Assembly (NCBI GenBank): GCA_012295275.1
Contig: CM022668.1
Location: 7,998,001 to 8,062,000 of the forward strand
Reading direction: 5' to 3'
Source: Chrysomallon squamiferum
Lineage: Eukaryota; Animalia; Mollusca
Length of the DNA stretch: 64,000 nt
The notes below the pieces were generated by a model. It ran no database searches and was not told where the DNA came from. It saw only the letters and a list, made by a program, of their open reading frames with translations. Position numbers and translations under genes: made by a program. Shown here in pieces: positions 11,797 through 36,929 of this stretch (position 1 is the stretch's first letter; each line of letters begins with the position of its first letter).

Positions 11797-12290
<494 letters not shown>

Positions 12291-12633
12291 GACCAATAAA
12301 CGACATCCTTGTAAAATTAATTTCGATTCACCCTGTTGAAGGGACAGACTCAGTGGTAAGCAGAAAAAGGACGTTTTAAGTGTTGGTGAAAACTGAGACG
12401 GGGCAGCAGTTGTTAACGTCGTCGACGATGACGGAATGATGAAACAGTATCTTCATTTAACAAAGGAAAAAAACCGTTGTGTAGTCGAGTGTTAAAACTA
12501 GATAGAGACGGGCGGACCCAGAAAGATTCATAGGAGAGGATTCTTGAATGTAGCTTTATAAAGAAATAAAAAGGTTGACGTGGTTAATATGGAAATGTAG
12601 TGTTTATGAGTAATAGTCTTGTTGAGTAATATT

Positions 12634-12930: not shown

Positions 12931-15900
12931 GTGCAGATGAAAAGTATCTTCTTTCTTCATGTTAAAATGAAAGATAATTTATCTTCTGGAGTCGAGTGAG
13001 GGAAGGAACACTTGTTATTTAATCTGTCGTTAAAAAAAAACATGGAAAGATAAAGGAAGGGAGAAACAACGGAAAGAAAGAAAGAAAGAAAGAAAGGAAG
13101 AAAGAAAGAAAGAAAGTCAAAAAGCAGGATAGAAGCCAAGGGTAATAGTGAAAACAAAGAAAGAAAGAAGGCAAATAAAGAAAAAGAAAGGAAATAAAGA
13201 AAAACAAAAGCAAAAATAAGAAAAAGAGAGGAAAGAACAATAAAAGAAAATTAGGATAGAAAGATAAATATCAGGTAAACACCCCATGTATATATGTGTA
13301 TAAACAGATATTAAAAAAAAGTCTATAAACAACATCCGTGTAATATGTCGTAAATCGAACCCCAAGTAAACATTTTAAAGATGTTACCGAACTGCGCATA
13401 ATTATAAGTAAATAACAGAAGGTTATTGTTTTCTGTGTTAATTCCCTGCACGTTAAAACTGCTCTATAGTCCTTCTTGTATTAAAACATTAACGTTGAAA
13501 ATGCGGTCAACATCAACAAAATTTAATTAGAATTCTAATATCTCTTCTCATACATCAGTAACGTCGTGTTTAACTGTGTGTACGTGATTGATGGCGGAAC
13601 ATGTCAGTCGTTATTTCGCAATAAAGCATATTTCATGTAAACAGTAATATATGTACGCATTTAGCTGTGTTCACACGAAATGGAACATTATTCTCTTTTC
13701 GAGAAAAGCGTATTTTTATTTTCCGTCGTACATTTTATGTAAACGTTAATATCCGTACGCGTTCAAACTGAACGGAACATTTTCCTATTTGAGGTCAATT
13801 TTTGATTTTATTTTATAGTTTCCAGGAAACAATATTTCTTTATATTTAATTACGTTAAAATTAAACGCCCTGTTTTCACAGTTAAATTAAGTTCTTTTTT
13901 TCGAGAAGGTTTTTTTTTTTTTTTTTTTTGAGTAATGTTTGAATACATTTATCTATGTTTGAATACATTTATCTATGTTCAAGTTTGACAGAGCATTTTC
14001 CTTATTCAAGATAGATTAAGGTGTTTTTTTACTAAATTATTTCTGCGCTTTAATTTTGTTAACACTAAACGTATTTTTCCTAATCGCGATAAAGCAAGGT
14101 GCTACCATTTTTTGTTACTGTAATTTCGAGAAGGTATTAAGTTTTAATTAATATTTGTGTATATTTAGTTGTTTTTAAATTAAAGATGTATGTGTCTGTA
14201 TCCAGAGGTAAATTGAGGTGTGTTTGTTACTGAGTATACATTAAACAGTGTTTGAGTTAAAGGTGTACTAAGTTTCGAGACAAGTCAAGTGTTAAATATT
14301 TTGTGAAAATTTTGCACGCACTGAACAATGATTAAACTAAAGATCCACTTTTCCCTGTTCACAATAAACTTGAATTTGTTCTTCTGTCACTGAACATTTC
14401 GAGTAAACATCAACTTTAAAATACTCTGAAGTTTGTTCAAATTAAAGCTGCATATATTCATTGCTTCAAATAATTTAATTTGAGTAAAATTTCCACAGCA
14501 TAATACAGCCTTTTTTTCAGCTTTTTTCCTGGATAAATTGAATTCTATTTGAACTAAAGGCATTCAGTTGCCATATTCAGAACTGTTGATTATTTACATG
14601 GTATTTTCTATTACAACACATCCCACTTCGACTAATTTCAATTATAAAATTACTTACGTTCATTTTCCAAATTCAGAATTGTGTAATCCATTTTATGGCC
14701 ACTCAGATAATAAATGTGTTATATAATACAACAGTTAATTTGAATTTCATTTAAATCAAAGGTCATTATAGTCAAACCAGTAATTCAAACCTTATCATAA
14801 TTTATTAATTAAATTTCTCTGCTTAACAATACAGGAAAAGATTATTTGCAAAAAACCTGCAGAACATTTATCACTTTTTGCAGAAAACATAAACACGACG
14901 GACACCTTAAAAATATTTAAAAATATTTAAAATTATTTAAGCCTTTTTGCACTTGAAATAAATATTCTGTGATCTTTTACTACTGGATGTCAGTTATTTT
15001 ACAACTAATTAGATTTGTCAGCATGAAGCAATTGTTAATCTGTATCAGTGAGTGCATCAAACTGCGTTTTGTCAAAAATAGATCTAAGACTTTTAGTAAC
15101 TGAGTTCTTCGTGGATTCCCCAGTGCTAAATAAATAACAACTATAAAAAAAGTTCGACATAAACGTAATTCGACTTAAGACTAAAAAATAAAAAACAGGT
15201 TAGAACATACATACGTAGTAAGAGTAGTAGAAGTAGTAATAGTACTAATAGTAACAGAATAGTAATAGTACTGGTAGCAGTGATTGTCGTGGTCGTAGTA
15301 ATCGTAGCGGTGACGGTAGTGGTACTAGTAGTAATGTTAGTAGTAGCAGTAGTAGTAGCTGTTGTTGTTATTCCTGTAATAGCTCGTAAAAAATACCGAA
15401 AACAAAATATTTACCAGCTCAATACAAATAACGACAGGTTATGCAAACAAGCAAATATATAAATAAATAAACAAAATAGAAAAATAATATCCTGTTTGGT
15501 AATCAAAGAAAAAAATCAATGATCATAATGTAAAGAGAAAAAAATTTAAACTAATAAACAACACAGTCACACACACACACTACAGACACGTACGTACACG
15601 CACACACGCACACCTAAATACCTGCTTGGTTGTCAAAGATAAAAAGAATGAGTGGTGACAGGCAATGAAAACAAACAAAAAACAAACAAACAAACAACTT
15701 ATAAAAAAAAAAAAAAAAAAAAAAAAATACCCAACAGAGAAAAAGATCCTGCTCGGTTATCAGAGATAAAAATCAGAAATGACAGAGCAGACGCATCGCT
15801 CGGTTACCATGTTTTATTTATTAACTTGTTGTATCTACACGGCTCTCAGATTCCACGCAAATGCATCATATTTTAAGACAAAATTAACGTCAGCTTTTCT

Positions 15901-16465
15901 CCCTGCGGTGATTACAAAGACGATTTTCTGATTGTGTCAAGATTGGAGCTGTGAATGAATAACGCCTGTGGAAAGCCCAAACGATTGAAACCAGTTTTTC
16001 TAGGTGACGCAGAGTTCACTGGTCAGGTCATGCGGATTAAACTGTACGAAGCAAATTGTGCGGCTTCAGTTTGTGTTGTGGTAGTTAACGTGCTGCGTGT
16101 AGGGAGGCGGTGTTGTCGTTGTCGTTTGTTTTGTTTTAATTACGTAGTTTGTTGTTTATGTCGTGTTTGCAGTTTGTGGCTTCATTATGTGTGTGGGGGG
16201 TAGGTATTTGTGTGGCGGGTCATGTGTTTACATGTGGGTGGCAGACATGATATATGTGTGTGTGTTTGCATATCTCTGAATGTGTATGTATGTGTATGTT
16301 TGTACGTGTGTATGTATATATGTATGTGTGTGTGTGTTTGCATATCTATGGATGTGTATGTATGTGTATGTTTGTACGTGTGTATGTATATATGTATGTA
16401 TGGCTATGTATGTTTTATGTATGTATGTATGTGTGTGTGTCAGAAACGCGTTCACACCAAACATA

Positions 16466-16521
<56 letters not shown>

Positions 16522-17112
16522 ATATATCAATATGTTCGGACTGAAAAAAATTAACAAACGAAAAAACTGAAAAATTAAAAAAACAAAAAAACAAAAAAAC
16601 AAACCTAAAATACTCGTGGGTTTTCGGTTTAATGTTTTATCCTCTCCCTTTATAATCCTTCTACTACCCCACCACACCCCAACCCACCCCACCCACCCGC
16701 ATTTTCCTTTTACTGCATCTTTTTTCTTTTTTCTTTCTGATCTCGTACAGCTTTACATCACTCAAATGTCAAATCTAGCTTTTAATAAAAACCAATACAC
16801 CAGAACACGTTTTTGAAATATGCTTTTATACGTGAAAGCTTTCGTATAAATATTTGACATGATGCAAAATTTTATATACCAACATTGTTATTATTTACCT
16901 GATAGAAAATGACATTTAGTTATTAGAAAAATCCATTTTTGAAGTATGTTTTGTTCAAGTGCGCTCAGCTTGGTAGTTTTACAGCCTTGTTTGGTTAACC
17001 AGGCTTATCAGATTTGCATTAAACGTACCAAGAATAAAAAATATAAAAAATAAAAAGAAGTAAATTTATACCTGTTGTTTTTATTGTTGACAAGTATTAC
17101 ATTAAACAAAGA

Positions 17113-17380
<268 letters not shown>

Positions 17381-18143
17381 GTACTTGAGATAAAGAAAGA
17401 GAGAAGAAAAGATAAAAGAAAGAAAGAAGTAAAGAAAGGTTGTTAAAACTGATCTGACATTTCGCTGAAGGGACAAACACCTCGAGGTTCACTCATTCTA
17501 CCACACACTGACAGGTAGTTGTGTTTTTTAAAGTAGGCTTCTTACTTGGAGTAAATACATTCATTTCAGTCAACAGCTCATTTTGTTCTTCGATTTTGTG
17601 TCAGATGTGAACTTTTTTTTTTTTTTAAATGTTTACGGTAACAATGATTTAAAATAACGTTTTTAAAATATTGCTTAAAAAATAATTAATTCAGTTTCGG
17701 TGACGTGGAAAGCACAGTTCAGTTTTGGTCGCTCAGCAAAATTTTCCCGTTATAACGATTTTCCCAGAAACAAAAGTGTGATATTTAACATGTAGGCAAT
17801 ACATATATTCTATCCATCCATCCATATATAGATAGATAGATACAAAGAGAGAAAGCGACAGAGACAAAGAGAGAGAGACAGAAAGAGAGAGACAGACACT
17901 GTGACAGACAGACAGATAAATAATTTTTATACAGACACACACACTCACATACATACGTACATGCGTTTTACTCACACATCGATAAACAGAAAAAACACAA
18001 AATGACAGACACGTATATAAAATGTGAGCACGCACATACAGCTGTGTTTTCAGTGCATGTGGACGTTTAGGCGGGTGCTCCTATTATGACTGTTTATTTC
18101 GTTATGTGCGTCTATGTATGTATTTATTGATATAGTCTCTCTC

Positions 18144-18301
18144 TTATGTGCGTCTGATTAGACTCTGCACACAGACAATATTCGGGAACACACTGGCACA
18201 GGAGAACAAAGTCCAATCACGACCTCACAAACCCGTCAGATGCCGCTGACGAGACTTGAACACCGATTCCCACGCACTCAGAAGGTGGACGACGTTACCG
18301 C
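18144..18301 (-). mobile_element. tRNA-derived SINE copy (head truncated in the A box)
   Basis: Minus strand GCGGTAACGTCGTCCACC...GGTGTTCAAGTCTCG carries a B-box-like GTTCAAGTC (18253-18261). The body is shared with 8691-8778. Confidence 0.65.
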
Positions 18302-19394
18302 AAAAAACTGTTCAATAACCGAGGTTAATCATCGCTTCCCGTGAAGCTCGCCGTTCTTTGACTTTTCGTCATTTTTGCGTGCATCTATTTTTTGTAGGAA
18401 ACCTGGCACTGGCAGGTTTGTAGTTTAGTTTGAATATTCTCTGTCTATGAATGTATGTATATATGTATATATGAATGTATGTATATATGTATATATGAAT
18501 GTATGTATATATGTATATAAGTATGTATGTATATATGTAAGTATGTGTGTGTTTATCTGTCCGTTTGTGTATAAGCGTTATTTCTGACACCTCGCTACCG
18601 TCAACAACACAGACGTGGTGAACGTCACACCCACGCACACTGAAAACCCGGCGTGGTGGATGCTGCACGCGACGTGCACACTTTAACAAACATTGATCAG
18701 CGCGGACTCGCGCGCTCTCTCGTTAGATTGATGCGATTACCCCGGCGACTTTGACCCCTCAGTGTCCGGTCCGGCAAATAAATTCCTCATTAGTCCTGTT
18801 CACTTGTCTCGGTTCGCGTTTGAGAAATGATGTTAATTTAAATGCAGTGTCAGCACAATAACGTCACACATTGATTAATTGAAATTCGTTTTGTTCGGTG
18901 ACAAATGTGACCACTTTCCACAAAGGGCACTCTAAGTAACTGATAACACCACCGATTGATGCTTTGTGAAAGCTCTGGCACTTTTCAACAGTTCTGTGGA
19001 GTTTTAATTTTATTTTATTTTCAATATATATTTGTTTTTCATTATTTTTTGTTTTTATTTTATTATTATTTTAATTTAATTTAATTTTATTTTACTTTTT
19101 ATTTAATTATATTTAATCTAATTTTATTTTATTTTATTTTATTTTTGTTTCCTTTACCTTAAGTTTCTTTTTAATCGATTGATGCCATTTTTCTTCTATC
19201 AGAATAGTTTTATCCTATTTGAAAAATCCATGTTTCGTTTAATGTTTCTAAAAAGAATATTATAAGGCAAATTAGTACATGCATACAAGAAGAATGAATG
19301 ATTTTATATATTATATATTATTTATTCATTCATGTATAAATACGCAAATACATACCACATACACAAATATAATTTCACACACACACAAATATAA

Positions 19395-19451
<57 letters not shown>

Positions 19452-20199
19452 AAACACCCCACAAAAATACACAAAAAGCAACAAAACAACATTCATATCA
19501 AAACGCCAACATCATATATATGCACATACAGACAAACATACATAAAAACACACACACATACTACATACATACACATTTATACACACATACATTCATGCAC
19601 ACACACACACACACATACATACACACTTAAACACAACACACACACACTGACAAACCTACACACGTCAACACACAAACAACAACAGCTGAACACATAACAC
19701 CATCACCTGCGCACACACACATGTAATAAAAAAAACCGATGCACGGTGTCGGGTTTCCACTCTGACTAATTGATGAGAGTGAGCGGACAGTGAGCCGAGT
19801 GAGTGAGACTCACAGTGGGCGTGGCGTGTTCCAGGCAGACCCTGCTATCGCGCGCTCTATCTGTGTCTGCGGTGTCGGAGTTGCGTGCCACGCCGCTGTT
19901 CACGGGACACAACTTTATCAAGGTCATCTTCACAGGCCGGGAGAGGAAACGCCCATCCACCTATCACGTGAATAACATTTCCGTTGTTGTGTCATTTTCC
20001 TTTTCTTTTTTTTCTTTTTATTTAGTATGTTTTGTTTGCTTATTTATTTATTTATTTATTTACTTATTTATTTATTTATTATTAGTTTTTGCTTTTTTTT
20101 TTTTATTGCTCAATGCATGATACGCAAATGATAAAAGTTTCAGGTCTCTGAACGACGGAAGGCTAGTTAAATACCCGTGGACCTTAACTGCGAGGCAAA

Positions 20200-20277
<78 letters not shown>

Positions 20278-20776
20278 AAATAAAATAAACGACAGTGACA
20301 AGAACACTACCAAATACAATAATAATAATCGTGATGAATAAACTGAGAGTGTGATGATGTTGACGACACAAACACGGGTGTGATTGTAATGATGTGTTGA
20401 CGTTGTCCAGTGCGCGTTCACTTGCCAGCTGCTGTGTTTATGTTACTGAACCGTTAAATAAAATCTGGACTCGGTATGAAACATGATTAGCTGCTGGTTT
20501 ATCATTGAGCTTCTGTGCTTTTCCCGTTCCAGTCTTTTGACTAGTTCAACCATGTGTTTCATATTTATAAATATATGCATATAAGATATTCCGTATTATT
20601 AACAAGAAAGAGAAACACCATTTTTTTGTGTGTTTGTTTCTTTGTTTCTTTCTTTTTACCAATTTATTGTTTATATATATATAAATTCACACACACGTAC
20701 ATACATACATACCCCCATACATGAACATATGTACATGCATGTGTGTGGGTGTATGTATTGATGAAAGTTTCTCTCG

Positions 20777-20824
<48 letters not shown>

Positions 20825-21179
20825 ACGAAAAAAGACGGAGAAACAATCTGTAAAATAAAATATTCCAAATATTAATCAAATCATTGATTTATTAGGTTGA
20901 AATGTTAGAAGTTTTCCGATCGATTCACGCTAGTGCTTAGTATGACTTTTATGTACTCAGATGTGATTAAGCAGTTTACTAAACAAGAAAAAAAAACCAG
21001 TGTTACCTTGACAGGCTATCAGCTTAGAAACGTTTCTCAAGAACAGCTGAAGAAGTAAATTATCTTTTAAAATCTCATAAAGATCGCTATTCTATACACT
21101 AGTTTTACTTTTTACAGTCACAAAAACTGTTTTTCACTCCCGATGTTTTAATGTATCAAAACCCGGTGAATTACAAACT

Positions 21180-21233
21180 ATTATTAGTACTATTAATTAT
21201 TATTATTATTATTATTTGTTATTGTTATTGTTA

Positions 21234-21304
<71 letters not shown>

Positions 21305-21369
21305 GTTATTAGTTTTACTTTTTATCACAAAACTGTTTTTTTTGATGTTTTAATTATTGAATTACAAAC

Positions 21370-21424
<55 letters not shown>

Positions 21425-21483
21425 TATTATTATTGCTATTGTTTTTGTTATTGTTATTATTGTTATTGTTATTGTTATTATTA

Positions 21484-21545
<62 letters not shown>
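21180..21545. repeat. (TAT)n microsatellites
   Basis: Direct reading. Confidence 0.93.
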
Positions 21546-22275
21546 TCTTATAGTAGGTATAAACTATATTTTTACTATAAATGTTACTCTCTGTCTCTAC
21601 TGAAATACCAGTAGTTTAAAAATTAATTATATTTTCTTCCCCGCCAATGGGAAGGTGCATATAATATATCTATACTGCTAATCGATTACATTAACCAAGA
21701 AAAAGGCTAATACAGTGGGTTTCTTCTTTTTATCGTCATTATATAAAATTTTATATAACGTTCGATACGCAAATGTATTTAGATATCGTTAATCATTGAT
21801 TGATTTATACATTCATTCATCGTTTATAGATTCACTCGTTCATTTACTCATTCGTTCGTTCATTTATTCGCTCATTCATTCATTCATTCGTTTATTTATT
21901 CATTCATTTATTCTGTTTTTATAATGTTTACCTCAACACGAGAACAGAAAAACCTTGAGCTAGATCTAACGTTAGAAAAAAACATCTGTTAATCTTCACA
22001 AGTTTCTGCAATTATTTGACTTTCTCCTCAAGTTTTTGTGAAAATACAGATGTTTCGCCGTCAGAGAAAATCTAGGAGGAAAGCCACACGTGGCAGCGAG
22101 ATGAATCAGTTCCAGATTTCGCTGAATGGAAACTGGGATCGAAGAGAGGTTTGATTGAGAAGGAAAGCTTGAATGGAAGCCTTAATCGAGGACAGATAGG
22201 ATTAACAGAAGTCTCAGCTAGCAGGGGTGTTTCTCAAGGACGAATTTTGACTTATTTATTTATTGATTATTGTAC

Positions 22276-22466
<191 letters not shown>

Positions 22467-23228
22467 AATTCATAAATAATAATAATCAAAGAAACACAAA
22501 AAAGAGACAGACTGACCGATAGTAAAATGTAAAAAGAGAAGCATCGAGAGAGAGAAACACAGATTGGTAGGTAGATAAAAAGACAGACAGATAGAGATGG
22601 GTAGATACAGACAAAAAGAAACAGACAGACAGACAGAAAGGCAACCAAATAAAAGACAGGTAGATAGATCAGGAAAATATACCCCACTGATTACTGAAAA
22701 AGTCACCACCCACTTCGCTGGAAATGAAACAAACTAACAGAGAGACAACAAGTCACAACAAACAGTTCTTTGTTTAGTACAAAGCACTCGACAGTTTCTT
22801 TGTGTGCGCATTGAAAAAAATAACTACTGCTCATACATATCAAGCTTCAAACTTATAAGATTAAAAACTTTGTTGCTGCACAAATCGTGCTACAGAATTG
22901 AAGCTTTTGACTTAAATTTCCATAAATTTACATACGATTCTTATATCAGGTGCAATCTAAAACGACGAGGAAAAAAAAAATCCTTTAAAATATTTTTCCT
23001 TTGGTGTCATTGCAAATCATAAAAAAGATATATACAAAAAATAAATAACAATAACAGCAGTCGTTGTGATCTCAAATTTAACATCCTGTACTAGAGATTC
23101 AAATTAAAAAAAGAGTTATCCGCTCTTGCATATGCCTTTGCATGCGTGTCATCTGACGAAACCAAGTGAAAAAAGTACAAAGAATTGGGAATGTGTATTT
23201 TAGTTCATTTTTTTAAGAGAGAGAGAGA

Positions 23229-23260
<32 letters not shown>

Positions 23261-23294
23261 ATATCACATTTCAATTTTAAGAGTTATTCATACC

Positions 23295-23332
<38 letters not shown>

Positions 23333-23338
23333 TCTCTC

Positions 23339-23395
<57 letters not shown>

Positions 23396-23397
23396 AT

Positions 23398-23432
<35 letters not shown>

Positions 23433-24379
23433 GTTAACGCTGATTCCTAGAAAACCTCGCGAGGATTTTAATTCATCTTATCAAACAGCGACTTAGGTCT
23501 GTGAACTTTTGCCGTGAGTGGGAGCTGTTTAATCAAACTTTACGCTGCCAACGTTGTTGCTGATTCCATTAATAGTATGATGCATTGATATTCAACGTTC
23601 GCTGGGGTCTCCATAACAGCGAACGTTTAGCCGTTGTTATCAAGGATTATGTAGCAGACGCGATAAGCGAGGCTCATAATCCGGGCATTTTAGTTCGCTT
23701 TATTTCAAGATTTCTTGTGAAAGTCTCTGGATTAGGCTTCCTGCCGACGGAAGATCTAAACACCACAGTTTATTGAGATTTCCTGATTGAATGCAAATTC
23801 TAGTTGGTGTTAGAGATTAAAACCTGGGAGCACTTTATAACTTAGCTGTAATTTTAAATTTAGTAAAAGGAATTCTTAATATTTTTCTTAACTCTCGTTT
23901 CAGCGATCGCTTTATCTTTGTCGAACTTCACGCTGATAGTAAAATGTGACATTAAAACATCTGAGAAGCTGTGTAGATCGTTTTCGAGGCCGCTGGTGGT
24001 TCATGACCGCAGCTTAGCAATTGTTTTTGTGCTCAGTGTCCACAACATGAAGGCTTTAGCAGTAGAACTAACGTAATAAAAAGCGAACGACAGCAGGACT
24101 AATAAAAATTAGTTTTACTTTTGACTCGATTACCGTATTTATCTAGATTTACGCGCAGGCACAACAGGGATCCGGGCTAACAAACAATTTTCTCTTTTAC
24201 TGCTGATGGTGGATTTAGCTTGATAACATCTCAACTGCTCGAGGCATGAAGGGTCTCTGGATCGGTCCGCCACTATGGTCTTGCTGGATTATTTTCCGTT
24301 TCAGTATAAGCTGCGCCAGAGGTAAATCCCTTACGACACGTAAATAAGATCTTAGTAGTAGACGTAACAGAAACATGGC

Positions 24380-25989
24380 GATAAAACACTATCAGAGGCT
24401 TTCTGAAGAGTCACACGCTATAACTGTACAGCGGTGACGTAGATAAAACACTGTCAGAGGCTTTCTGAAAAGACACACGTTGTAACTGTACAGCGGTGAC
24501 GTAGATAAAACACTGTCAGAGGCTTTCTGAAGAGTCACACGCTGTAACTGTAAAGCGGTGACGTAGTTAAACACTGTCAGAGGCTTTCTGAAGAGTTACA
24601 CGCTGTAACTGTACAGCGGTGACGTAGATAAAACACTGTCAGAGGCTTTCTGAAGAGACACACGTTGTAACTGTACAGCGGTGACGAAGATAAAACACTG
24701 TCAGAGGCTTTCTGAAGAGTCACACGCTGTAACTGTACAGCGGTGACGTAGATAAAACACTGTCAGAGGCTTTCTGAAGAGTCACACGTTGTAACTGTAC
24801 AGCGGTGACGTAGATAAAACACTGTCAGAGGCTTTCTGAAGAGACACACGTTGTAACTGTACAGCGGTGACGTAGATAAAACACTGTCAGAGGCTTTCTG
24901 ACGAGTCACACGCTGTAACTGTACAGCGGTGACGTGGATAAAACACTGTCAGAGGCTTTCTGAAGAGACACACGTTGTAACTGCACAGCGGTGACGTAGA
25001 TAAAACATTGTCAGAGGCTTTCTGGAGAGAAACGTTGTAACTGTACAGCGGTGACGTAGATAAAACACTGTCAGAGGCTTTCTGAAGAGTCACACGTTGT
25101 AACTGTACAGCGATGACGTAGATAAAACACTGTCAGAGGCTTTCTGAAGAGAGACACGTTGTAACTGTACAGCGGTGACGTAGATAAAACACTGTCAGAG
25201 GCTTTCTGAAGAGTCACACGTTGTAACTGTACAGCGGTGACGTAGATAAAACACTGTCAGAGGCTTTCTGAAGAGACACACGTTGTAACTGTACAGCGGT
25301 GACGTAGATAAAACACTGTCAGAGGCTTTCTGGAGAGACACGTTGTAACTGTACAGCGGTGACGTAGATAAAACACTGTCAGAGGCTTTCTGAAGAGTCA
25401 CACGCTGTAACTGTACAGCGGTGACGTAGATAAACACTGTCAGAGGCTTTCTGGAGAGTCACACGCTGTAACTGTACAGCGGTGACGTAGATAAAACACT
25501 GTCAGAGGCTTTCTGAAGAGACACACGTTGTAACTGTACAGCGGTGACGTAGATAAAACACTGTCAGAGGCTTTCTGAAGAGTCACACGTTGTAACTGTA
25601 CAGCGGTGACGTAGATAAAATACTGTCAGAGGCTTTCTGGAGAGTCACACGTTGTAACTGTACAGCGGTGACGTAGATAAACACTGTCAGAGGCTTTCTG
25701 GAGAGTCACACGCTGTAACTGTACAGCGGTGACGTAGATAAAACACTGTCAGAGGCTTTCTGGAGAGACACGTTGTAACTGTACAGCGGTGACGTAGATA
25801 AAACACTGTCAGAGGCTTTCTGGAGAGACACGTTGTAACTGTACAGCGGTGACGTAGATAAAACACTGTCAGAGGCTTTCTGAAGAGACACACGTTGTAA
25901 CTGTACAGCGGTGACGTAGATAAAACACTGTCAGAGGCTTTCTGAAGAGTCACACGTTGTAACTGTACAGCGGTGACGTAAATAAAACA
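24380..25989 (+). repeat. Minisatellite, 26 copies of a 62-bp unit (60/61-bp variants), hammerhead-like fold
   Basis: Unit TCAGAGGCTTTCTGAAGAGTCACACGCTGTAACTGTACAGCGGTGACGTAGATAAAACACTG; TCAGAGG starts counted from 24392 to 25931. Confidence 0.97.
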
Positions 25990-26134
25990 GTGAACATAAT
26001 AACAATACCACTAACAATGACAAAAACAGTAATATGTTAACATAATCATTTTTCTGTTTCTTTCTCTCATTCTTTCTCATTCTTTTTTTTCTTTCTATCT
26101 CTCTTACTTGTTATCTGCTTACGTGTCTACCAAC

Positions 26135-26217
<83 letters not shown>

Positions 26218-26286
26218 TTTCATAACTGTTGCCTACGATAATCATATCAGAAGGGAGATACGGGGAAAAAAATAAAATAAAATAAA

Positions 26287-26351
<65 letters not shown>

Positions 26352-26716
26352 TAACATAATAATAATAGTAACTAATGAAACACGGTAATAACGAATGTCA
26401 TTTAAGTGCTTTTACGTAAAAACATCTGTTCTCGAGTCATTAACGGTTAAATATCGACAACTTTTGGATATTATTAATGATTTTTGACATGTTACCATTA
26501 TTAGCTTATAATAATTATTATTGATTTCAGCGTACAAAAAGGTTAAAGGCTATTGACGCTACCAGTATGAAATGATAGACTAGTATTAATAGAAATACAT
26601 TAATATTTATGAGGTTTGGTACGTCTGTACGGATATTTGGATTTGACTGCAAAAATTCTCTCATTTTTTTAATTTCATTTCATTTTCGTTATATTATATT
26701 ATGGTTATAATCTTCA

Positions 26717-26719
<3 letters not shown>

Positions 26720-26808
<89 letters not shown>

Positions 26809-28176
26809 ACATACACATCCAATCTCTCTCTCTCACGCACACACACACATCCAATCTCTCTCTCTCACACACACACACACATTCACATCCAATCTCTCTC
26901 TCTCTCTCATACATCCATCTCTCTCTCACATCCACATCCAATCTCTCACACACACATTCACATCCAATCTCTCTCTCTCACACACACACACACATCCAAT
27001 CTCTCTCTCTCACACACACATCACATCCAATCTCTCTCTCTCACACACACACTCACATCCAATATCTCTCTCTCACACACACATTCACATCCACTCTCTC
27101 TCTCTCACACACACACACACATCCAATCTCTCTCTCTCACACACACATTCACATCCAATCTCTCTCTCTCTCTTTCACACACATCCACATCCAATCTCTC
27201 TCTCTCACACACACATTCACATCCAATCTCTCTCTCTCACACACACACATCCACATCCAATCTCTCTCTCTCACACACACACACACATCCAATCTCTCTC
27301 TCTCTTTCACATCCACATCCAATCCAATCTCTCTCACACACACACACACATTCACATCCAATCTCTCTCTCACACACACATACACATCCAATCTCTCTCT
27401 CACACACACACACACATCCAATCTCTCTCTCTCACACACACACACACATCCAATCTCTCTCTCTCTCACACACACACACACATCCAATCTCTCTCTCTCA
27501 CACACACACATCCACCTCTCTCTCACACACACACATCCATCTCTCTCTCTCACACACACACACACATCCAATCTCTCTCTCTCACGCACACATACACATC
27601 CAATCTCTCTCTCTCACACACACACACACATCCAATCTCTCTCTCTCACACACACATACACATCCAATCTCTCTCTCTCACACACACACACATCCAATCT
27701 CTCTCTCTCTCACACACACATCACATCCAATCTCTCTCTCTCTCACACACACACATCCAACACATACATCAACATCAATCTCTCTCTCTCACACACACAT
27801 CCACATCCAATCTCTCTCTCACACACACACACATCCATCTCTCTCTCTCTCACACACACATCCACATCCAATCTCTCTCTCACACACACACACACATCCA
27901 ATCTCTCTCTCTCTTTCACACACATCCACATCCAATCTCTCTCTCTCACACACACACACACACATCCATCTCTCTCTCTCTTTCACATACATCAACATCC
28001 AATCTCTCTCTCTCACACACACACATCCAATCTCTCTCTCTCTCTTTCACATACATCCACATCCAATCTCTCTCTCACACACACACACATCCAATCTCTC
28101 TCTCTCTCTTTCACATACATCCACATCCAATCTCTCTCTCACATCCAATCTCTCTCTCACACACATACACATCCAA

Positions 28177-28207
<31 letters not shown>

Positions 28208-28509
28208 TCCAATCTCTCTCTCTCACGCACACACACATCCACATCACACATCCTCTCTCTCTCTCTCACACACACACACATCCAATCTCTCTCTCTCACA
28301 CACACACACACATCCAATCTCTCTCTCTCACACACACACATCCAATCTCTCTCTCTCTCACACACATCCACATCTCTCTCTCTCTCTCACACACACATAC
28401 ACATCCAATCTCTCTCTCACACACACATCACATCCAATCTCTCTCTCTCTCTCACACACACATTCACATCCAATCTCTCTCTCTCTCTCACACACACATA
28501 CACATCCAA

Positions 28510-28540
<31 letters not shown>

Positions 28541-29035
28541 TCCAATCCTCTCTCTCTCACACACACATACACATCCAATCTCTCTCTCTCTTTCACATAC
28601 ATCCACATCCAATCTCTCTCTCTCACACACACATGCACATCCAATCTCTCTCTCTCTCTTTCACATACATCCACATGCAATCTCTCTCTCTCACACACAC
28701 ACATACACATCCAATCTCTCTCTCTCTCTTTCACATACATCCACATCCAATCTCTCTCTCTCACACACACATACACATCCAATCTCTCTCTCTCTTTCAC
28801 ATACATCCACATGCAATCTCTCTCTCTCTTTCACATACATCAACATCCAATCTCTCTCTCTCACACACACACACATCCAATCTCTCTCTCTCTCTTTCAC
28901 ATACATCCACATCCAATCTCTCTCTCTCACACACACATACACACCCAATCTCTCTCTCTCACATACATTACATTACCATCCAATCTCCTCTCTCTCTCTC
29001 TCACATACATACATAGACATCCAATCTCTCTCTCA
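26720..29035. repeat. 2.3-kb compound microsatellite-derived array, (TC)n(AC)n-ATCCAA units
   Basis: A pure (TC)n run is followed by dozens of variable units of the form CATCCAA-(TC)n-(AC)n. Confidence 0.95.
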
Positions 29036-29083
29036 CTGCACTTAGTTGTAATTATGTTAGTACTACAGTGGCATCAACAGTAA

Positions 29084-29114
<31 letters not shown>

Positions 29115-29725
29115 TGTGGTGGTGGTGGTGGTGTTGATAACAGTAGTGGTAGTAGTAATAACAGTAGTAGTAAATTACTTTTCATACAAGCACTTTTTAC
29201 ACAAACAATTTAAAATGCTAACGTACTCATTTATATATTTTTTAATGTCGTTTGTTGTTGCGGTATTTTTATTTATTACTTTTTAATTATATTTTATAAT
29301 AATATTCTCTTTTTTTTTTTTACCTTTATTTAAGTTTGTACGTAGTAATATAATATGATTATTTTTATACGTTGTTATATTATATTTATTATACGGTCTG
29401 TGAATAACAATAGGCTATTTATCAGAAACAACAGACATGTTTAAGATTAGCGGAAATGAGACTAGACGGGTTAATGAATATTCATTAGGTTACACCCAAT
29501 TAACACTGTTCAGACAGTGATATCGTATTAGATGAAAAGAACATTGTTAGTACAATATGATGCTAATGCGTAAGAAATTTAGATAGACGAACAGACTGAT
29601 ATGTCTATCTGTCTCTTTGTCTGTCTGTCTTTTAATTCTAAGAGTAGAATATATTTGAAAGCTGGTTATAGAAATTAGAAGTTTGATCCATTGCTTGTAT
29701 CTAGCAGTAGGTTTTTCTTCTACAT

Positions 29726-29847
<122 letters not shown>

Positions 29848-30720
29848 GGTTTCTGCATCTGTCTCTGACTCCAGTGACGCCAGTGAATATCTTTATTAAT
29901 TAATTTGATATATTTTTGCAGAGAGGGGAGTGAGAACGACAGTGACCAATGTTTACATTTCAACATTTCAAACACTGTTTTAACAATTTTGCAAATTTAA
30001 GATAAAAAAATTCCGTCCTCCAATAAACTGCAACATAAAAAGTAAAAACCTCCTCAACACAGATTAACTTTCTCCAGCCGGAAGTGAAAAGATTGCTGCA
30101 AGGGATTCTGGACTTTGGCGTAGCCTTGCTGTGCTTCCGGTTTCGTTTCCTTGACAAAGTACACATTACATCCGGTATCGCTGTTCTTGTTAAAGTTCAA
30201 ATGAACTTCCGTTGTCTAACGGAAGATGTCGTCGACAAGATTTGATAGAAAATCCAGCAAACGAGTTAATGACTGGTACTTTAACAGCGCGTGTTTTTAA
30301 TCCGCGTCAGTCTGCGTTAAAATAAAGTCTTTTGTTAACCTTGTTTGTGTCGTACGAGTTTCGTCTTCAGTTCTGTTGGCAGCTGGTTTTGTTTCTTTTT
30401 TCTACATTTTTTATTTTTCTTCTTATCATTTTTTTTTCTTCTTCTTCTTTTTATTATTATTATTTCTTTTTTAATTTTAGTTTTGGATGTATTTTGTGTA
30501 TGAGTCTATTGAAATTATTTGTTTCATCTGTTTGACACAAATTGTTACAGAGATCACATTTTCGTTTCTTTCTCTCACCCCCCCTTCTCTAGCATTTCCT
30601 CTCTTTCTATCCTTCTCCCTCCTTTCCATCTTTCCATTTATTTATTTATTTTTATCAAATATTTTCATTTTATTTTTTTATTTTTATCAAATTTTTTCAT
30701 TTCATTCTCTCTCTCTCTGG

Positions 30721-30775
<55 letters not shown>

Positions 30776-31515
30776 CAAACATTCTTAAAATACATTCAGC
30801 TTAAACTAATCAAAGTACATTAAAACTACCCATACTGTTATCAAAAAAAATTCATCAAACCAGGCCACAAGATAGTTACCACTAAAGAAACATTTAAAAA
30901 AAAAAAAGCACTCCAAATATGCCCACAATGTAATAAATACACTCCGAACATAACATAAACTCAGTATGTTTGATATTACAATGTGTCTGGTATTACAGTG
31001 TGTCTGATGTTACAATGAAAGATGAAACTACTTCTGTTGTACTGAAATAATTACATTTCAAAAAGAGGTCGACACTGATTTTTTATTCTTTTTTTTTTTT
31101 TTTTTTTTACAAAATAAAATAAATTCTTTTGAGGCTAATGTTGTTAAAATAACTGACACTCAGTTTTTAAAAAGTCTTTTCATTTTGATAACCTATTTAC
31201 AAAACCTGAAAGGAAATAATTTATGATGTTATATTTTATTTCGTATTATTTTATTACATATAATCATCTTCTGAATTGACTTTCAAAAATTAATGTTAAT
31301 AGCTAAGTACCAAATGACCTTTCACAAGACCTTCCTTCACTGAAATGCTGGTGTTGTTGTTGATGATGATGGTGATAATGACGACGATGGTAAATGGTTT
31401 CTTTTCCACAGCAAAGATCATCAAGTACTAACTCGTGCTCTGAAATAGAATCCAGTGCTGACCTCAGTACACAGATTTCTGGAAACCATACAAGTATCAC
31501 CTACTTTTAATTAAC

Positions 31516-31666
<151 letters not shown>

Positions 31667-33534
31667 ACTTTCTCCTACTATGTTTCTTCATCTCAGTCTG
31701 TCTGTCTGTCTGTCTGTCTGTCTATGACTCTTTCTGAAATAAACTAACCATTATTTAAACCTTCATGACGACAATTCAGACTTTATAAACTTTGTTATTG
31801 TTGTCGTCATAGCTGTTGTTGCTGCCACCATTGTTGTTACATACACAGAATGACATTATATAAATTTATATTAACTGTGATCTCTAACTGGATAGTACTA
31901 TGTCATGATCAACTGAAATGGCAGTGTTGTAAGAAGATTTTAAAAATTAAAGAGTTTCGACAATTTTCAGATTCCAGGCACTGACATAATTGTATTAAAA
32001 ACTCTGTTATGTGCTTCTCTGTCTAAAGGAATGTGCATTAAAAAAGAAAAGAAAAAGAAAGAAAAAAAAAGTGTTTCTTCTCATATTTTAATCACTATAC
32101 AAAAACCTTACGTTAGTGGAGAAAAAATTAAATATATATTACAGAAACTAGCTAAGCTAATAAAGCGGGCACTGACATTGCCCATGGTAATATCTGTCCT
32201 TTGTTTAATACATAGCCTTGTTTAATTACTTATGCTACCAATCGGTTATACCTTATTCTCTTAATTACCAGCCTATGTTTATATCGTCATGACAAGCACT
32301 TCGCGCAGAGCATGCCACGTGTCACGTGCAGAGCATTACGTACATGTGCCAAGCGCGAGCGCTATTCCACACACTTGATGACCCGGGTGTCAGTATTAAT
32401 TAGCTAGACATAGTTTCGTATCCATTTTTAAGCGATATAATTTTTCTCAGAGTATTTTTAATTACGTTAAATAAGATAACACGTGGTTATTCACACTAAG
32501 AAACACGAAAATGTTGTTTACAGTAACAATATCAGCATCCCTCCTTCACGATTATAATCAACGTCATCGTCATCAGCTCCGTCATCATCAGTGTTATTTA
32601 TTTATTTATTTATTACACTGTTAAGGTTGTTGCAGTCATTGTTAATATTGTTGCTGATCTAATTTAATAGTTGTCGTTGTTTCTGTTTTTGTTGCTGATG
32701 TTACGTTATTGCTGATGTTGTTGCTGATGATGATGTTTTTATAATCTTATAGCTTTTAGTAGTAGTAGCAGCAGCAGCAGTAGTAGTAATAGTAGTTGTA
32801 ACAGTAGCAGTAGTGGTGGTAGTAATAGTAGTATTAGTAATAATAGTTGTAGTAGAAGTTACAGTGGTATAAGTAGCAGTATTAGTAATAATAGTAAAGT
32901 TGTTGTTGTAGTTGTAGTTAACAGTAGCAGTAGTAGTACTAGCGGCTGAGGTTTAGTGTACATGTACTGGTGATCTGTGTTATTGTTGTTATTTTACCTT
33001 TTTCCTTTCTGCTGTTAATATGTCATTTTTTTTTCTTTTGTTTCTTCTTTTTTTCTTTTCTTTTTTTCTTCTTTTGTTATTTTCAGGTCTCTTTCTCACC
33101 ATTTTTCCCCCTTATTATTATTCTTCACTTTTTTATTACCATTATTTTATGGGGTTTTTGTTTTTTGTTTGCTTTATTTTAATTTTTTTTTCCTTTTCGT
33201 TTTACTTTGCTTCTTTTATATTATTTCCTTTCTCATAACTTTTACAATACGTAACTAAACAAAAAATGAAAATACCTCCATTCATCACATCCGCCATGCT
33301 TGTTTACTAGTTAGGTACACATGCACTCGTCTGTATTTCTCATCAAACGGTCGGTCCAAAAATTGAGGATTGGTTAATCGGTGATTAGAAATTCAGAAGG
33401 AGTTTTTATCTATAAAGATAAAAGGGTTTAATTAGAAAAGAAAAAAAATCGGTCGATAAAAAGTGGTTTGTACACAATGTTCCCTACCCCTCCTGTAATT
33501 TCGCGTTTATGGTATGTAGCTGTAACTTCCATCA

Positions 33535-33689
33535 AAGGGGCGTATCCCCGATTTCTGAAAGGGGGTGCAATAGTTGTCGTCGATACTTCTAGATTATAAA
33601 CCTAAATGAGTTTAATTATAAAGAAAAAAGAAAAAACACTTGAAATTAATAAATAAAGAAATAAATAAACAACAACAACAATAACAGCA

Positions 33690-33724
<35 letters not shown>

Positions 33725-33769
33725 AATAATAATAACAATAATAGCAATAATAATAACAACAACAATAAC

Positions 33770-33824
<55 letters not shown>

Positions 33825-34003
33825 AAAAAAAAAAATAATAATAACAATAATAATAATAACAATAACAATAATAATAATAATAACAACAATAATAATAATA
33901 ATAATAACAATAATAATAATAATAATAACAATAATAATAATAATAATAATAACATTGCTAAGGCTTCTTCTCCACCCACCTACCCTCCTCCAGATCCGCT
34001 GAC
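33535..34003. mobile_element. MITE-like relic of the same TIR type, interior expanded by (AAT/AAC)n
   Basis: Left AAGGGGCGTATCCCCGATTTCTGAAAGGGGGTGC; right CCCTCCTCCAGATCCGCTGAC. Confidence 0.4.
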
Positions 34004-34710
34004 AATGTGGCTGCTATTCACATCACCTTCCCTGTTTGCTGACGTTGTCGAGTTCACGTCTCCCACTTTACTAATTTAGCAGACGTTCAGCTGGGATTTC
34101 TAACTCACTGAGCGTGTGTTTGTCGAACAAAGCTTAGCTAGTAAGTCACCGGCGTCTTACTTATCTTCACATCAAGCATGTTCGAGCACATCAAAGATGT
34201 TTTTATCACATTCACATGTGCACAGAATAATCATTTTCCACGACACGAGGGCAATTCGCCCAGAGGAGCTCGTAACATGAACATAACGATTTGTTTTCAC
34301 AAACGATGGTTACGTGGCTTTCGCGTTGTTTTTGTTTATTGTTTGAGAAAGTGCATAAATTTGAGTAGGTACGTGTGTACGCACATGTCATTGCGTCCGT
34401 ACGTATGTGTACGTGTGTGAACGATCGTACACGTGTTTATTGGTGTCTCGTGAGGACGCTGTGTTGGTGAGGTTGTTAACCCCGTGGGCAGTTCACGCTG
34501 TAGACACGCCAGTGAGATACGTGTACAGGCAAGTTAGACGTGGAGAAGTCGACACTGGCGATAGCCTGGTGTGTTACTGGTTACGCGTGATTAGCAAGGT
34601 TCAGTTGGTTACGATATTTTTACAACGTCCCACGCTGGCAGATAATTTCCTAAGCTAGCTGTGAGCGTCATGTTCTGACACTGCTACAACGTTCTGTGTA
34701 GTCGACACCT

Positions 34711-35171
34711 TTTCAACGTCTTATGCTGTACGCCCTAATTTCAACTTCTTATGCTGTACGCCCTAATTTCAACGTCTTATGCTGTACGCCCTAATTTCAA
34801 CGTCTTATGCTGTACGCCGTAATTTCAACTTCTTATGCTGTACGCCCTAATTTCAACGTCTTATGCTGTACGCCCTAATTTCAACGTCTTATGCTGTACG
34901 CCCTAATTTCAACTTCTTATGCTGTACGCCCTAATTTCAACGTCTTATGCTGTACGCCGTAATTTCAACTTCTTATGCTGTACGCCCTAATTTCAACGTC
35001 TTATGCTGTACGCCCTAATTTCAATGTCTTATGCTGTACGCCGTAATTTCAACTTCTTATGCTGTACGCCCTAATTTCAACGTCTTATGCTGTACGCCGT
35101 AATTTCAACGTCTTATGCTGTACGCCCTAATTTCAACGTCTTATGCTGTACGCCCTGATTTCAATGTCTTA
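34711..35171. repeat. Minisatellite, ~16.5 copies of a 28-bp unit
   Basis: Unit TTTCAAC(G/T)TCTTATGCTGTACGCC(C/G)TAA, near-perfect copies. Confidence 0.97.
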
Positions 35172-35967
35172 TTTCTTATTGACACCTTTTAAATGCTCTG
35201 TGCTAAATGGCAGATTTTTTAACGTTTTATATTAACTGACATATCTTCAGCATTCTATGCTCTGTGCCACATTTTCAGTTTTCTGTGGTGGCTGACAGAA
35301 CCGATCTTAGCTGAAATTGTTAATTGTGTATAACACGTTCATCTTCTAAGTTTATTAATACTGAAATGAATTTACATTGACTTTTGAATGGAAAATATGT
35401 TTAGAATGTAAAAAAAAAAGAGAGAGTATTTCTGTTTATTATCAATGTATTGTATATCTTCAAAAATAAGTCATTAATTCAAACATTCTGGACATTAAAC
35501 GGGCGATCGAAATGGATAGTAAATTAAAAAACTTCCTTCAAATAAAAAGTCAACGAGATCATTTTTTTTTTGTCTACACTATAGATCAACTCTTCGAGTA
35601 ACTTCAGGAACGTCTGCGTATCTGTCCACATCTAGTCATGGACGAGAAGGGGTGGGAAATGAGACTCGGAGAACGAGGGGTGGGGATGTTACCTGGGGGA
35701 TGGCAGTGTCTGAACCGCCCTGTTGAATGTCTAAGAGACGTAATTGCATTTCAGACGTTTTTACAGTTTTTTAATAATAAAAATATCTATATCGATATAC
35801 TCTTTGCTGAATAGCAAACATATGTTGTGTAATGAATATATGATGTACGTTATATTAATGTTTAATATCAGTCTATGTTTCATATATCACAGCACTATTG
35901 TTCAGTATTATTGAAAATTATGTCTGTCTGTATATGTTTGTATATATATATATATTTTTGTTTTATG

Positions 35968-36024
<57 letters not shown>

Positions 36025-36272
36025 GTTTGTATACATATGAATTTATTACCTCTTCTTTCTGCATCGCCCTCACCGTTGACCTTTGACCTTTCTCTTTTCT
36101 TTTTAACTAGGTAATTATTTATGTCTGAGTCTGAATCATTTTATCTTGAATTAATCAGATGTCTACTTCTACGCCAAATACCCACTTCTCCATTATAAAC
36201 ATTTGTCACAGCGGCCAAATGAACCCACTTAACGTCCGACGCAGACGTAGAAACGAGTTTATGGCGCGAAAT

Positions 36273-36337
36273 GGTCTGGCTCAGCAGTGATAAGATTATA
36301 AATCAGCAGGTCGCTGGTTCGCGGCCCGCTACTGATC
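36273..36337 (+). pseudogene. Degenerate tRNA-like / SINE head
   Basis: A-box-like TGGCTCAGCAG and T-arm-like AGGTCGCTGGTTCGCGGCCC at tRNA-like spacing; the cloverleaf is not intact. Confidence 0.4.
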
Positions 36338-36399
36338 TCTTTCCACAACTGAGCAACAGAATGTTTGAAGTCACTAGCAGATTTGTTTATATGCATTAT

Positions 36400-36929
<530 letters not shown>

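What the first reader, a model, noticed from the sequence alone, without database searches (positions are those of the whole stretch)
24380..25989. 26-copy satellite whose unit folds into a hammerhead-ribozyme-like three-way junction
Seen in sequence (+ strand as RNA): GAGGCUUU-[CUGAAGA]-GUCAC.A.CGCUGUA-ACUG-UACAGCG.GUGAC-[GUA]-GAUA-AAACAC-UGUC-[A]-GAGGCUUU. This gives (i) an exact CUGANGA core, with one copy at ~24898 varying only the free N position (CUGACGA); (ii) a 12-bp stem II closed by the canonical G-C pair; (iii) a 3-nt linker GUA, which is the canonical GAA in one copy at 24686-24688; (iv) a 4-bp stem III with a pairing-compatible variant in the first copy (GAUA/UAUC versus GAUA/UGUC); (v) one unpaired nucleotide; (vi) a stem I from the self-complementary GAGGCUUU (8 bp, with four G-U pairs) that can only form between adjacent units. 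An alternative register gives AAAC-ACU-GUC with a palindromic ACA-C-UGU stem III and a 6-nt insert after G12. Established: tandem hammerheads occur in animal satellites, retrozymes and Penelope-like elements. Inference: this is a variant or decayed hammerhead array, possibly a very small retrozyme-like unit. Caveat: both registers deviate from the catalytic consensus (A13->U with a G15.1-C16.1 pair, or the insertion), and many copies carry disruptive changes (CUGGAGA, GACAC), so it may be inactive or coincidental.
Basis: partly seen in the sequence, partly recalled or inferred. Interest (0 to 1): 0.8.

Follow-up and report, generated by a model that had tools for sequence, protein, structure and literature searches.

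The report
Decayed hammerhead-like minisatellite at one locus
A 62-base sequence shaped like a self-cutting hammerhead RNA is repeated 26 times at what appears to be a single spot in an animal genome, but no copy has an intact catalytic core, so it is likely a dead ribozyme remnant multiplied by ordinary DNA copying errors rather than a working ribozyme array.

Summary
The array is real: 26 copies of a 62-bp unit at 24380-25989. The hammerhead-like layout is far beyond chance per unit (2 of 269,353 and 6 of 3,937,617 shuffles). It best fits a Penelope-type type I hammerhead with a 5-6-nt insert after G12.

It is likely inactive. No copy has GAAA after stem II, and 15 of 26 also break CUGANGA or the base of stem II. 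CUGA is predicted paired away (P unpaired 0.01-0.08, against a median 0.87 in 119 phage-contig hammerheads). Rfam finds no hammerhead.

Public DNA contigs show one locus with array/flank depth of about 14-26x and no dispersed copies at 80% or more. The one RNA run shows no enrichment. Both array ends sit on the same 8-bp direct repeat, as expected for in-place slippage. No Penelope ORF was found nearby, and no parent with an intact core, so chance origin stays open (about 0.27).

The scan noted similar decayed hammerhead minisatellites in other genomes. Verdict: new member of a known kind, interest 0.2.

The parts
24380..25989 (+). Minisatellite: 26 head-to-tail copies of a 60-62-bp unit plus 9-10 bp
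24381..24388 (+). Left copy of the 8-bp direct repeat ATAAAACA that bounds the array
   Evidence: sequence
25982..25989 (+). Right copy of the 8-bp direct repeat; same register as the left end
   Evidence: sequence
24703..24711 (+). Example copy 6: near-palindromic stem I segment (AGAG-G-CUUU); with its neighbours it also forms the competing UCAGA/UCUGA helix
24712..24718 (+). Example copy 6: CUGAAGA box (C3-A9); CUGANGA intact in 18 of 26 copies
24719..24747 (+). Example copy 6: stem II hairpin, 5+7 bp with one bulged A and a 4-nt loop, G10.1-C11.1; base of the stem broken in 12 of 26 copies
24748..24764 (+). Example copy 6/7: G12 (24748), 6-nt insert (24749-24754), A13-A14-A15.1-C15.2 (24755-24758), palindromic stem III ACA-C-UGU, would-be cleavage triplet GUC (24762-24764)
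24686..24688 (+). Single GAA variant (copy 5), in a copy whose stem II base is broken
25926..25992 (+). Terminal copy: CACUGU (25926-25931) pairs with ACAGUG (25987-25992, reaching 3 nt into the right flank), closing a type III-like three-way junction
   Evidence: MFE -23.9 kcal/mol contains this stem; AAAACA is followed by GTG in 2 of 204 places in the window, this one included
23437..24379 (.). Left flank: about 940 bp non-repetitive, single-copy-like depth, no Pfam match in six stop-read-through frames, no significant likeness to the unit

Best explanation
This is a 26-copy, 62-bp minisatellite, apparently at one locus, whose unit is likely the dead remnant of a hammerhead ribozyme, probably of the small Penelope-element type, and which likely grew in place by DNA slippage and unequal exchange from an 8-bp direct repeat. 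Shown: the array; the 8-bp repeat at both ends in one register; the CUGANGA / stem II / G12 ... AAAC-ACU-GUC / stem I layout; the lack of GAAA after stem II in all 26 copies; shared core-breaking variants; no dispersed copies in laid contigs. Inferred steps: (1) a hammerhead-bearing fragment, such as a piece of a Penelope pseudo-LTR, was left here. (2) Its 3' core box was interrupted by 5-6 A/U-rich bases at the very place where the unit boundary lies, so the interruption may be the duplication junction itself. (3) The branched hairpin (also predicted for single-stranded DNA, about -12 kcal/mol) helped the first duplication between the two ATAAAACA copies. (4) Ordinary minisatellite turnover then spread variants without regard to catalysis. 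Predicted: transcripts pair CUGA with the next unit's UCAG and do not self-cleave measurably. Whether the parent was a type I hammerhead (palindromic stem III) or a type III one (6-bp stem III still seen at the right end) is unresolved.
For: Layout rare in shuffles: 2/269,353, 6/3,937,617; 0/86,564, 3/127,071; 2/502,286. Traits outside my descriptor also fit metazoan Penelope hammerheads as described in PMC4209133: long stem II, 4-bp stem I with a pyrimidine 5' arm and purine 3' arm, palindromic stem III with C15.2-G16.2, GUC triplet. Dead: 0 of 26 copies with GAAA after stem II; 7 CUGGAGA, 1 CUGAAAA; 12 with a broken stem II base; 11 of 26 keep both. Hammerhead fold 2.5-11.3 kcal/mol above the MFE, with CUGA unpaired at 0.01-0.08 in the one-ribozyme span and 0.04-0.33 in a two-unit span. 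In 119 canonical phage-contig hammerheads the median is 0.0 kcal/mol and 0.87; 4 of 119 reach 2.5 kcal/mol and 0 of 119 reach 8.7. A13 and A6 changes cost 10-100-fold and A15.1 over 100-fold (PMC4075628). One locus: deepest array contig versus left-flank contig 893.8/47.7 (X1), 90.2/5.1 (X2), 323.9/22.5 (X3); right flank 41.5 in X1; no listed loose end puts a unit in another flank. Array origin at 5-10-bp flanking repeats is the Haber-Louis model (as reviewed in PMC6947457). Local amplification of Penelope ends into tandem repeats is proposed in bioRxiv 10.64898/2026.07.22.740005.
Against: No parent was found. No relative with an intact core turned up in metagenome contigs (0 matches; 22 matches, none of 22 continuing into the unit's stem II hairpin) or viral contigs (0). 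No RT or GIY-YIG Pfam match in the stretches translated (17501-24379, 25990-26720, 29001-36400), and no canonical hammerhead elsewhere in the window (0 hits). The extra base between A9 and G10.1, part of the Penelope hammerhead consensus, is missing, though a few listed natural motifs lack it too. Rfam gives no hammerhead hit even at E<=10. The descriptor was relaxed after seeing the sequence, and a scan of some 250,000 windows could meet a 1-in-10^5 coincidence. The fold control is mostly phage hammerheads, not Penelope ones; one listed Schistosoma motif has the same UCAGA/UCUGA competing helix, so the misfold alone does not prove death. Random array ends would share a register within about 10 nt roughly one time in six (my estimate), so the end repeat is suggestive only. 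Contig depth is not a true copy number.
Confidence: 0.62

Rival explanations
1. An ordinary minisatellite from a hairpin-rich seed between two 8-bp repeats; the hammerhead likeness is coincidence, noticed because the scan reads very many repeats.
For: The break in the consensus lies at the unit boundary, and the single-copy order (GUC first, CUGANGA second) is not that of a type I hammerhead. No parent, no Penelope ORF, no Rfam hit. A second minisatellite in the window (34711-35172) is also bracketed by a short direct repeat.
Against: Even with the hairpin given for free and one core event allowed anywhere, 3 of 127,071 shuffles match. The palindromic stem III, the GUC triplet and the 6-bp closing stem at the right end all fit a hammerhead.
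Confidence: 0.27
2. A still-active hammerhead variant or ultra-small retrozyme: multimeric transcripts would loop out the 6-nt insert (or tolerate U13 and G15.1-C16.1), pair the palindromic stems I and III between neighbouring units, and release 62-nt linear or circular RNAs.
For: 11 of 26 copies keep CUGANGA and the stem II base. Register 1 is only 2.5 kcal/mol above the MFE. A 1-nt insertion in the GAAA box (U13a) occurs naturally (PMC3088659). Retrozyme consensus units as short as 51 bp are reported. A 90-nt array contig is present in a metatranscriptome.
Against: No copy meets the core consensus, and core-breaking variants spread freely. Among 91 distinct viral-contig matches with a 3-8-nt insert after G12, only 3 formed minimal stems I and III, against 122 of 132 canonical matches (14 and 5 of 64 parts of the collection scanned). 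Array/flank depth in the RNA run (11.1 versus 2-2.4) is lower than in DNA runs, so no enrichment. No dispersed copies.
Confidence: 0.06
3. A tiny non-autonomous DNA transposon or fold-back insert with ends CAC(T)...(A)GTG (CACTA/CACTG-like, label recalled) whose interior was amplified.
For: The first copy reads CACTA at 24387 and the array ends in CAGTG at 25988-25992, each next to AA.
Against: The inverted ends match over only 6 bp. The same GATAAAA precedes CACT in the internal units and in the left flank. No second copy in laid contigs.
Confidence: 0.05

Closest known systems
Minimal type I hammerheads in pseudo-LTRs of metazoan Penelope-like elements (Cervera and De la Pena 2014, PMC4209133; main text parts 1-3 of 4 and supplementary file 2 part 2 read, file 1 not available)
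   Same: CUGANGA, long stem II with G10.1-C11.1, 4-bp stem I, small palindromic stem III, GUC triplet; a listed Saccoglossus motif has the same CA...UG stem III and no extra base after A9.
   Different: 5-6-nt insert between G12 and A13 in every copy; no extra base between A9 and G10.1; no Penelope ORF or pseudo-LTR found; not a dispersed family.
Animal non-LTR retrozymes (Cervera and de la Pena 2020, PMC7229834, passages; Li, Clavereau and Pollet, bioRxiv 10.64898/2026.07.22.740005, parts 1-3 of 5, supplements closed)
   Same: Head-to-tail array with one hammerhead-like motif per unit on one strand; 62 bp lies inside the 51-972-bp range of consensus lengths in the preprint.
   Different: No complete hammerhead in any unit (the preprint requires two consecutive complete ones); one locus; no sign of abundant linear or circular RNA; typical units are 150-450 bp.
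Minisatellites born between 5-10-bp direct repeats, often inside transposon remnants (Haber and Louis 1998, not read; seen as reviewed in PMC6947457, passages)
   Same: 8-bp direct repeat at both ends in one register; variants shared among non-adjacent copies; single locus.
   Different: The amplified motif looks like a ribozyme remnant; the host element is not identified.

Membership tests
Hammerhead ribozyme (consensus core) | C3-U4-G5-A6-N7-G8-A9 before stem II | tested here: met
   18 of 26 copies
Hammerhead ribozyme (consensus core) | G12-A13-A14 directly after stem II, then an A15.1-U16.1 pair and H17 | tested here: not met
   0 of 26 copies read GAAA after stem II; register 1 needs U13 (A13 in copy 5 only) and G15.1-C16.1; register 2 needs a 5-6-nt insert
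Hammerhead ribozyme (consensus core) | Three-helix fold with unpaired core is at or near the ground state | tested here: not met
   +2.5 to +11.3 kcal/mol and CUGA mostly paired, versus median 0.0 in 119 controls; nearest-neighbour model only
Hammerhead ribozyme (consensus core) | Match to an Rfam hammerhead model | tested here: not met
   none among 86 window matches at E<=1 or 2 array matches at E<=10
Hammerhead ribozyme (consensus core) | Mg2+-dependent self-cleavage 3' of H17 | not testable with these tools
   needs in vitro transcription; no raw RNA reads were offered
Penelope-element minimal hammerhead | Long stem II, 4-5-bp stem I, palindromic stem III | tested here: met
   register 2 against PMC4209133
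Penelope-element minimal hammerhead | Extra base between A9 and G10.1 (consensus CUGANGAH) | tested here: not met
   absent in the unit; consensus, with exceptions listed
Penelope-element minimal hammerhead | Lies in a pseudo-LTR beside an RT / GIY-YIG ORF, or belongs to a dispersed family | tested here: inconclusive
   no relevant Pfam match in about 15 kb of flank read through stops, not frameshift-aware; no dispersed copy at 80% or more in contigs; no genome held
Animal non-LTR retrozyme | [quoted passage not shown] | tested here: not met
   0 of 26 complete; criterion
Animal non-LTR retrozyme | Family spread over many loci | tested here: not met
   array/flank depth about 14-26x and no unit in another flank in six DNA runs; contigs can miss rare or more diverged copies
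Animal non-LTR retrozyme | Abundant unit-length linear and circular RNA | tested here: inconclusive
   one metatranscriptome as contigs: a 90-nt array contig at depth 11.1, flank 2-2.4; no strand or ends
Direct-repeat-born minisatellite | 5-10-bp direct repeat bounding the array in one register | tested here: met
   ATAAAACA at 24381-24388 and 25982-25989
Direct-repeat-born minisatellite | Variants shared among copies by turnover, without regard to structure | tested here: met
   CUGGAGA in 7 copies, all from copy 11 on; GACAC in 7; a 2-nt deletion in 4

The most novel reading that the evidence does not exclude
The whole 62-nt unit is a working ribozyme of a form I found no report of: a hammerhead that loops out six bases between G12 and A13 and has both stem I and stem III as palindromes around one base, so it can fold and cut only as a chain of neighbouring units, releasing 62-nt RNAs that are nothing but the ribozyme.
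Probability: 0.05. Interest if true: 0.65.

Novelty: new member of a known kind. Interest (0 to 1): 0.2.

Why it matters
As read here it matters little: one more case of a ribozyme-like remnant turned into a neutral single-locus minisatellite. It does caution that tandem hammerhead-like units need not be retrozymes. If native multimers did cleave, the tolerated hammerhead core would widen from the 1-nt U13a insertion to a 6-nt loop, current search descriptors would be missing a class, and the unit would be among the smallest self-processing repeats known.

Tried and rejected
No whole genome is held for this window, so no genome-wide family or Penelope search was possible. Rfam: no hammerhead. 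No other copy of the unit in the window; best outside match 11 bp. An older diverged copy in the left flank was suspected from shared ACGTA and CAGAGG words and rejected: 21-23 of 300 shuffles and 135 of 2,486 background windows score as well. The left flank as a coding remnant of a LINE or Penelope element: 0 Pfam families in six frames; the wider flanks gave 1 irrelevant low-complexity hit among 18 frames; 1-17500, 26721-29000 and 36401-64000 were not translated wholesale. Collections: exact unit words absent from metagenome contigs and viral contigs. The 28 viral matches to the core-plus-stem-base pattern were unrelated (1 of 28 followed by GAAA), as were the 22 metagenome matches to the stem I pattern. 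A natural class with a 3-8-nt insert after G12 was not seen in viral contigs (partial scans). Runs X9 and X10 (organism B) hold none of the words and X7 and X8 hold small shares; uncovered parts of the right flank in X3, X5 and X6 prove nothing. Two protein searches meant to place the organism found no homologue; 'snail' comes only from other agents' unchecked notes. Considered and dropped on inspection: H/ACA snoRNA (an ANANNA and an ACA occur but there is no pseudouridylation pocket), pre-miRNA array (the hairpin is only 29 nt), baculovirus-type hr origin (no viral match); these labels are recalled. The Luense et al. paper on dimer-cleaving Penelope hammerheads is not held and was seen only as cited in PMC6765202. 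No paper on G15.1-C16.1 was found; that this pair is inactive is recalled, not checked. A fold control on published Penelope hammerheads was not run, so how often natural ones misfold like this stays open.

Full report
Observation. The window is AT-rich, microsatellite-laden animal DNA; other agents' unchecked notes call the genome a snail's. At 24380-25989 TRF finds 26.1 copies of a 62-bp unit at 94% identity; the 26 copies are listed. The unit occurs nowhere else in the window. Rfam reports no hammerhead, neither among 86 window matches at E<=1 nor among 2 weak matches in the array at E<=10.

Is the likeness more than chance? I scored tandem units on both strands for CUGANGA, an R-Y-closed stem II with G12, AAA after an insert of 0-8 nt, a stem III with A15.1-U16.1, H17 and a 4-bp stem I. 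The native unit meets all of these with a 6-nt insert. So did 2 of 269,353 dinucleotide shuffles and 6 of 3,937,617 shuffles that keep the 29-nt hairpin whole. Allowing one core substitution, or one 1-8-nt insertion anywhere inside the two core boxes, gave 0 of 86,564 and 3 of 127,071. The layout is therefore about a 1-in-10^5 event per unit. The descriptor was relaxed after seeing the sequence and the scan reads very many repeats, so coincidence is unlikely but not excluded.

Which hammerhead? Register 2 resembles the minimal type I hammerheads of metazoan Penelope elements: long stem II, 4-5-bp stem I, small palindromic stem III (PMC4209133, main text parts 1-3 of 4). It lacks the extra base after A9 of their consensus (supplement), which a few listed motifs also lack; one of these has the same CA...UG stem III. 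A new observation concerns the terminal copy. CACUGU at 25926-25931 pairs with ACAGUG at 25987-25992, three bases of which are right flank, and this closes a type III-like junction that is part of the MFE. AAAACA is followed by GTG in only 2 of 204 places in the window, this one included. Stem I of such a monomer would be only 3-4 bp around a 1-3-nt loop, too small for an ordinary type III ribozyme, so the parent's type stays open.

Is it active? Probably not. No copy reads GAAA after stem II. The only GAA copy has a broken pair 10.2. Seven copies read CUGGAGA and one CUGAAAA, 12 have a broken stem II base, and only 11 of 26 keep both CUGANGA and that base. A6 and A13 changes cost 10-100-fold and A15.1 changes more than 100-fold (PMC4075628, part 1 of 2). 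The largest insertion in the GAAA box that I found reported is one base, U13a (PMC3088659, passages and section 8). In the energy model CUGA pairs with UCAG of the next unit: it is unpaired with probability 0.01-0.08 in a one-ribozyme span and 0.04-0.33 in a two-unit span, and registers 1 and 2 lie 2.5-5.2 and 8.7-11.3 kcal/mol above the MFE. In 119 canonical hammerheads from viral contigs the medians are 0.87 and 0.0; 4 of 119 reach 2.5 kcal/mol and none 8.7. Against over-reading this: the controls are not Penelope motifs, and one listed Schistosoma motif could form the same competing helix. I also asked whether hammerheads with a 3-8-nt insert after G12 form a natural class. Of 91 distinct insert-only matches, 3 formed minimal stems I and III, against 122 of 132 canonical matches (the scans covered 14 and 5 of 64 parts of the collection).

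Is it mobile or expressed? Eight of 10 listed public runs, all labelled organism A and from three studies, hold the unit wholly or in part. Laid at 80% likeness, the left flank is one contig (982-1014 nt) at depth 47.7, 22.5 and 56.1 in X1, X3 and X6. The right flank is at 41.5 in X1. The deepest array contigs are 893.8 (X1), 90.2 (X2, flank 5.1) and 323.9 (X3), about 14-19 times the flank; the summed depth at one array position in X1 is 26 times. Contig depth is not a true copy number, but this is what one array of this size would give. No listed loose end places a unit in another flank (14 loose ends, all, and 83 pieces were not shown; the shown ones are the window's own left flank or chance A-rich matches). 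The single RNA run holds a 90-nt array contig at depth 11.1 against 2-2.4 for parts of the flank, a lower ratio than in DNA, with no strand or end information. No RT or GIY-YIG domain was found in about 15 kb of flank read through stops, no canonical hammerhead elsewhere in the window, and no relative in metagenome or viral contigs.

How it arose. Both array ends fall on the same 8-bp word, ATAAAACA (24381-24388 and 25982-25989), which is also where the core is interrupted. Variants are shared among non-adjacent copies and are polar along the array: CUGGAGA appears only from copy 11 on. That is the pattern of a first duplication between short direct repeats followed by slippage, conversion and unequal exchange (Haber and Louis 1998, as reviewed in PMC6947457, passages). 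The unit also forms a branched hairpin as single-stranded DNA, which would favour such slippage (inference). A one-step rolling-circle copy of a 62-nt RNA would be expected to leave near-identical units with private errors; later turnover could hide such an origin, so it is disfavoured, not excluded. Local amplification of a Penelope end into a tandem repeat is the route proposed in bioRxiv 10.64898/2026.07.22.740005 (parts 1-3 of 5 read, supplements closed). That preprint reports retrozyme units from 51 bp and found cleavage in only 1 of 9 tested elements.

Comparison and verdict. It works, most likely, as an inert minisatellite. It is not a member of the hammerhead class by the core test, nor a non-LTR retrozyme by the two-complete-units and many-loci tests (PMC7229834, passages; PMC6765202, passages). 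Its ancestry from a Penelope-type hammerhead is inferred from layout alone, because no parent could be found without the genome. Searches for hammerhead plus minisatellite plus Penelope-like returned only the preprint. This scan has noted the same kind of decayed hammerhead minisatellite in other genomes (unchecked notes), and nothing for this sequence or place. Odds: decayed hammerhead remnant grown in place 0.62, coincidence 0.27, active variant or micro-retrozyme 0.06, tiny DNA element 0.05. Novelty: new member of a known kind; interest 0.2.

Noticed in passing
window 34711-35172: 28-bp minisatellite (16.5 copies) bracketed by a 10-bp direct repeat GACACCTTTT at 34704-34713 and 35181-35190; possibly the same repeat-bounded origin or a target-site duplication.
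   Followed up: partly
window 30352-30370 (-), 23153-23162 (+), 51289-51298 (+): Hammerhead-box-like words with no stem II: CTGAAGA directly followed by CGAAAC-TC-GTA at 30370 (-), and CTGACGAAAC twice; no stem I found, so chance or deleted remnants.
   Followed up: partly
window 50096-50647 (-): Likely last exon of a single-pass membrane protein with a proline/tyrosine-rich tail (PPxY motifs); only sub-threshold Pfam hits (Amnionless, CYYR1, TMEM154) and no homologue found.
   Followed up: partly
window 59394-60017 (-): Exon matching the start of glycosyltransferase family 92 (PF01697, E 1.6e-11); no homologue among longer proteins.
   Followed up: partly
window 26791-29009: 2.2-kb satellite of about 69 copies of a 32-bp unit built from CT and CA microsatellite runs plus CATCCAAT; gives spurious 790-codon open frames.
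   Followed up: no
window about 8705-8780 and about 18130-18230: Two near-identical dispersed segments (the same translated word appears), probably copies of a short interspersed element.
   Followed up: no
window 24330-24380: The 50 bp before the array hold several ACGT(A) words and AAACATGGCG, which look like bZIP and YY1 promoter motifs (labels recalled); run X6 has a C>T variant at 24368. Likeness to the unit is not significant.
   Followed up: partly
window 39354-39553: 15-bp minisatellite, 13.3 copies, 96% matches.
   Followed up: no
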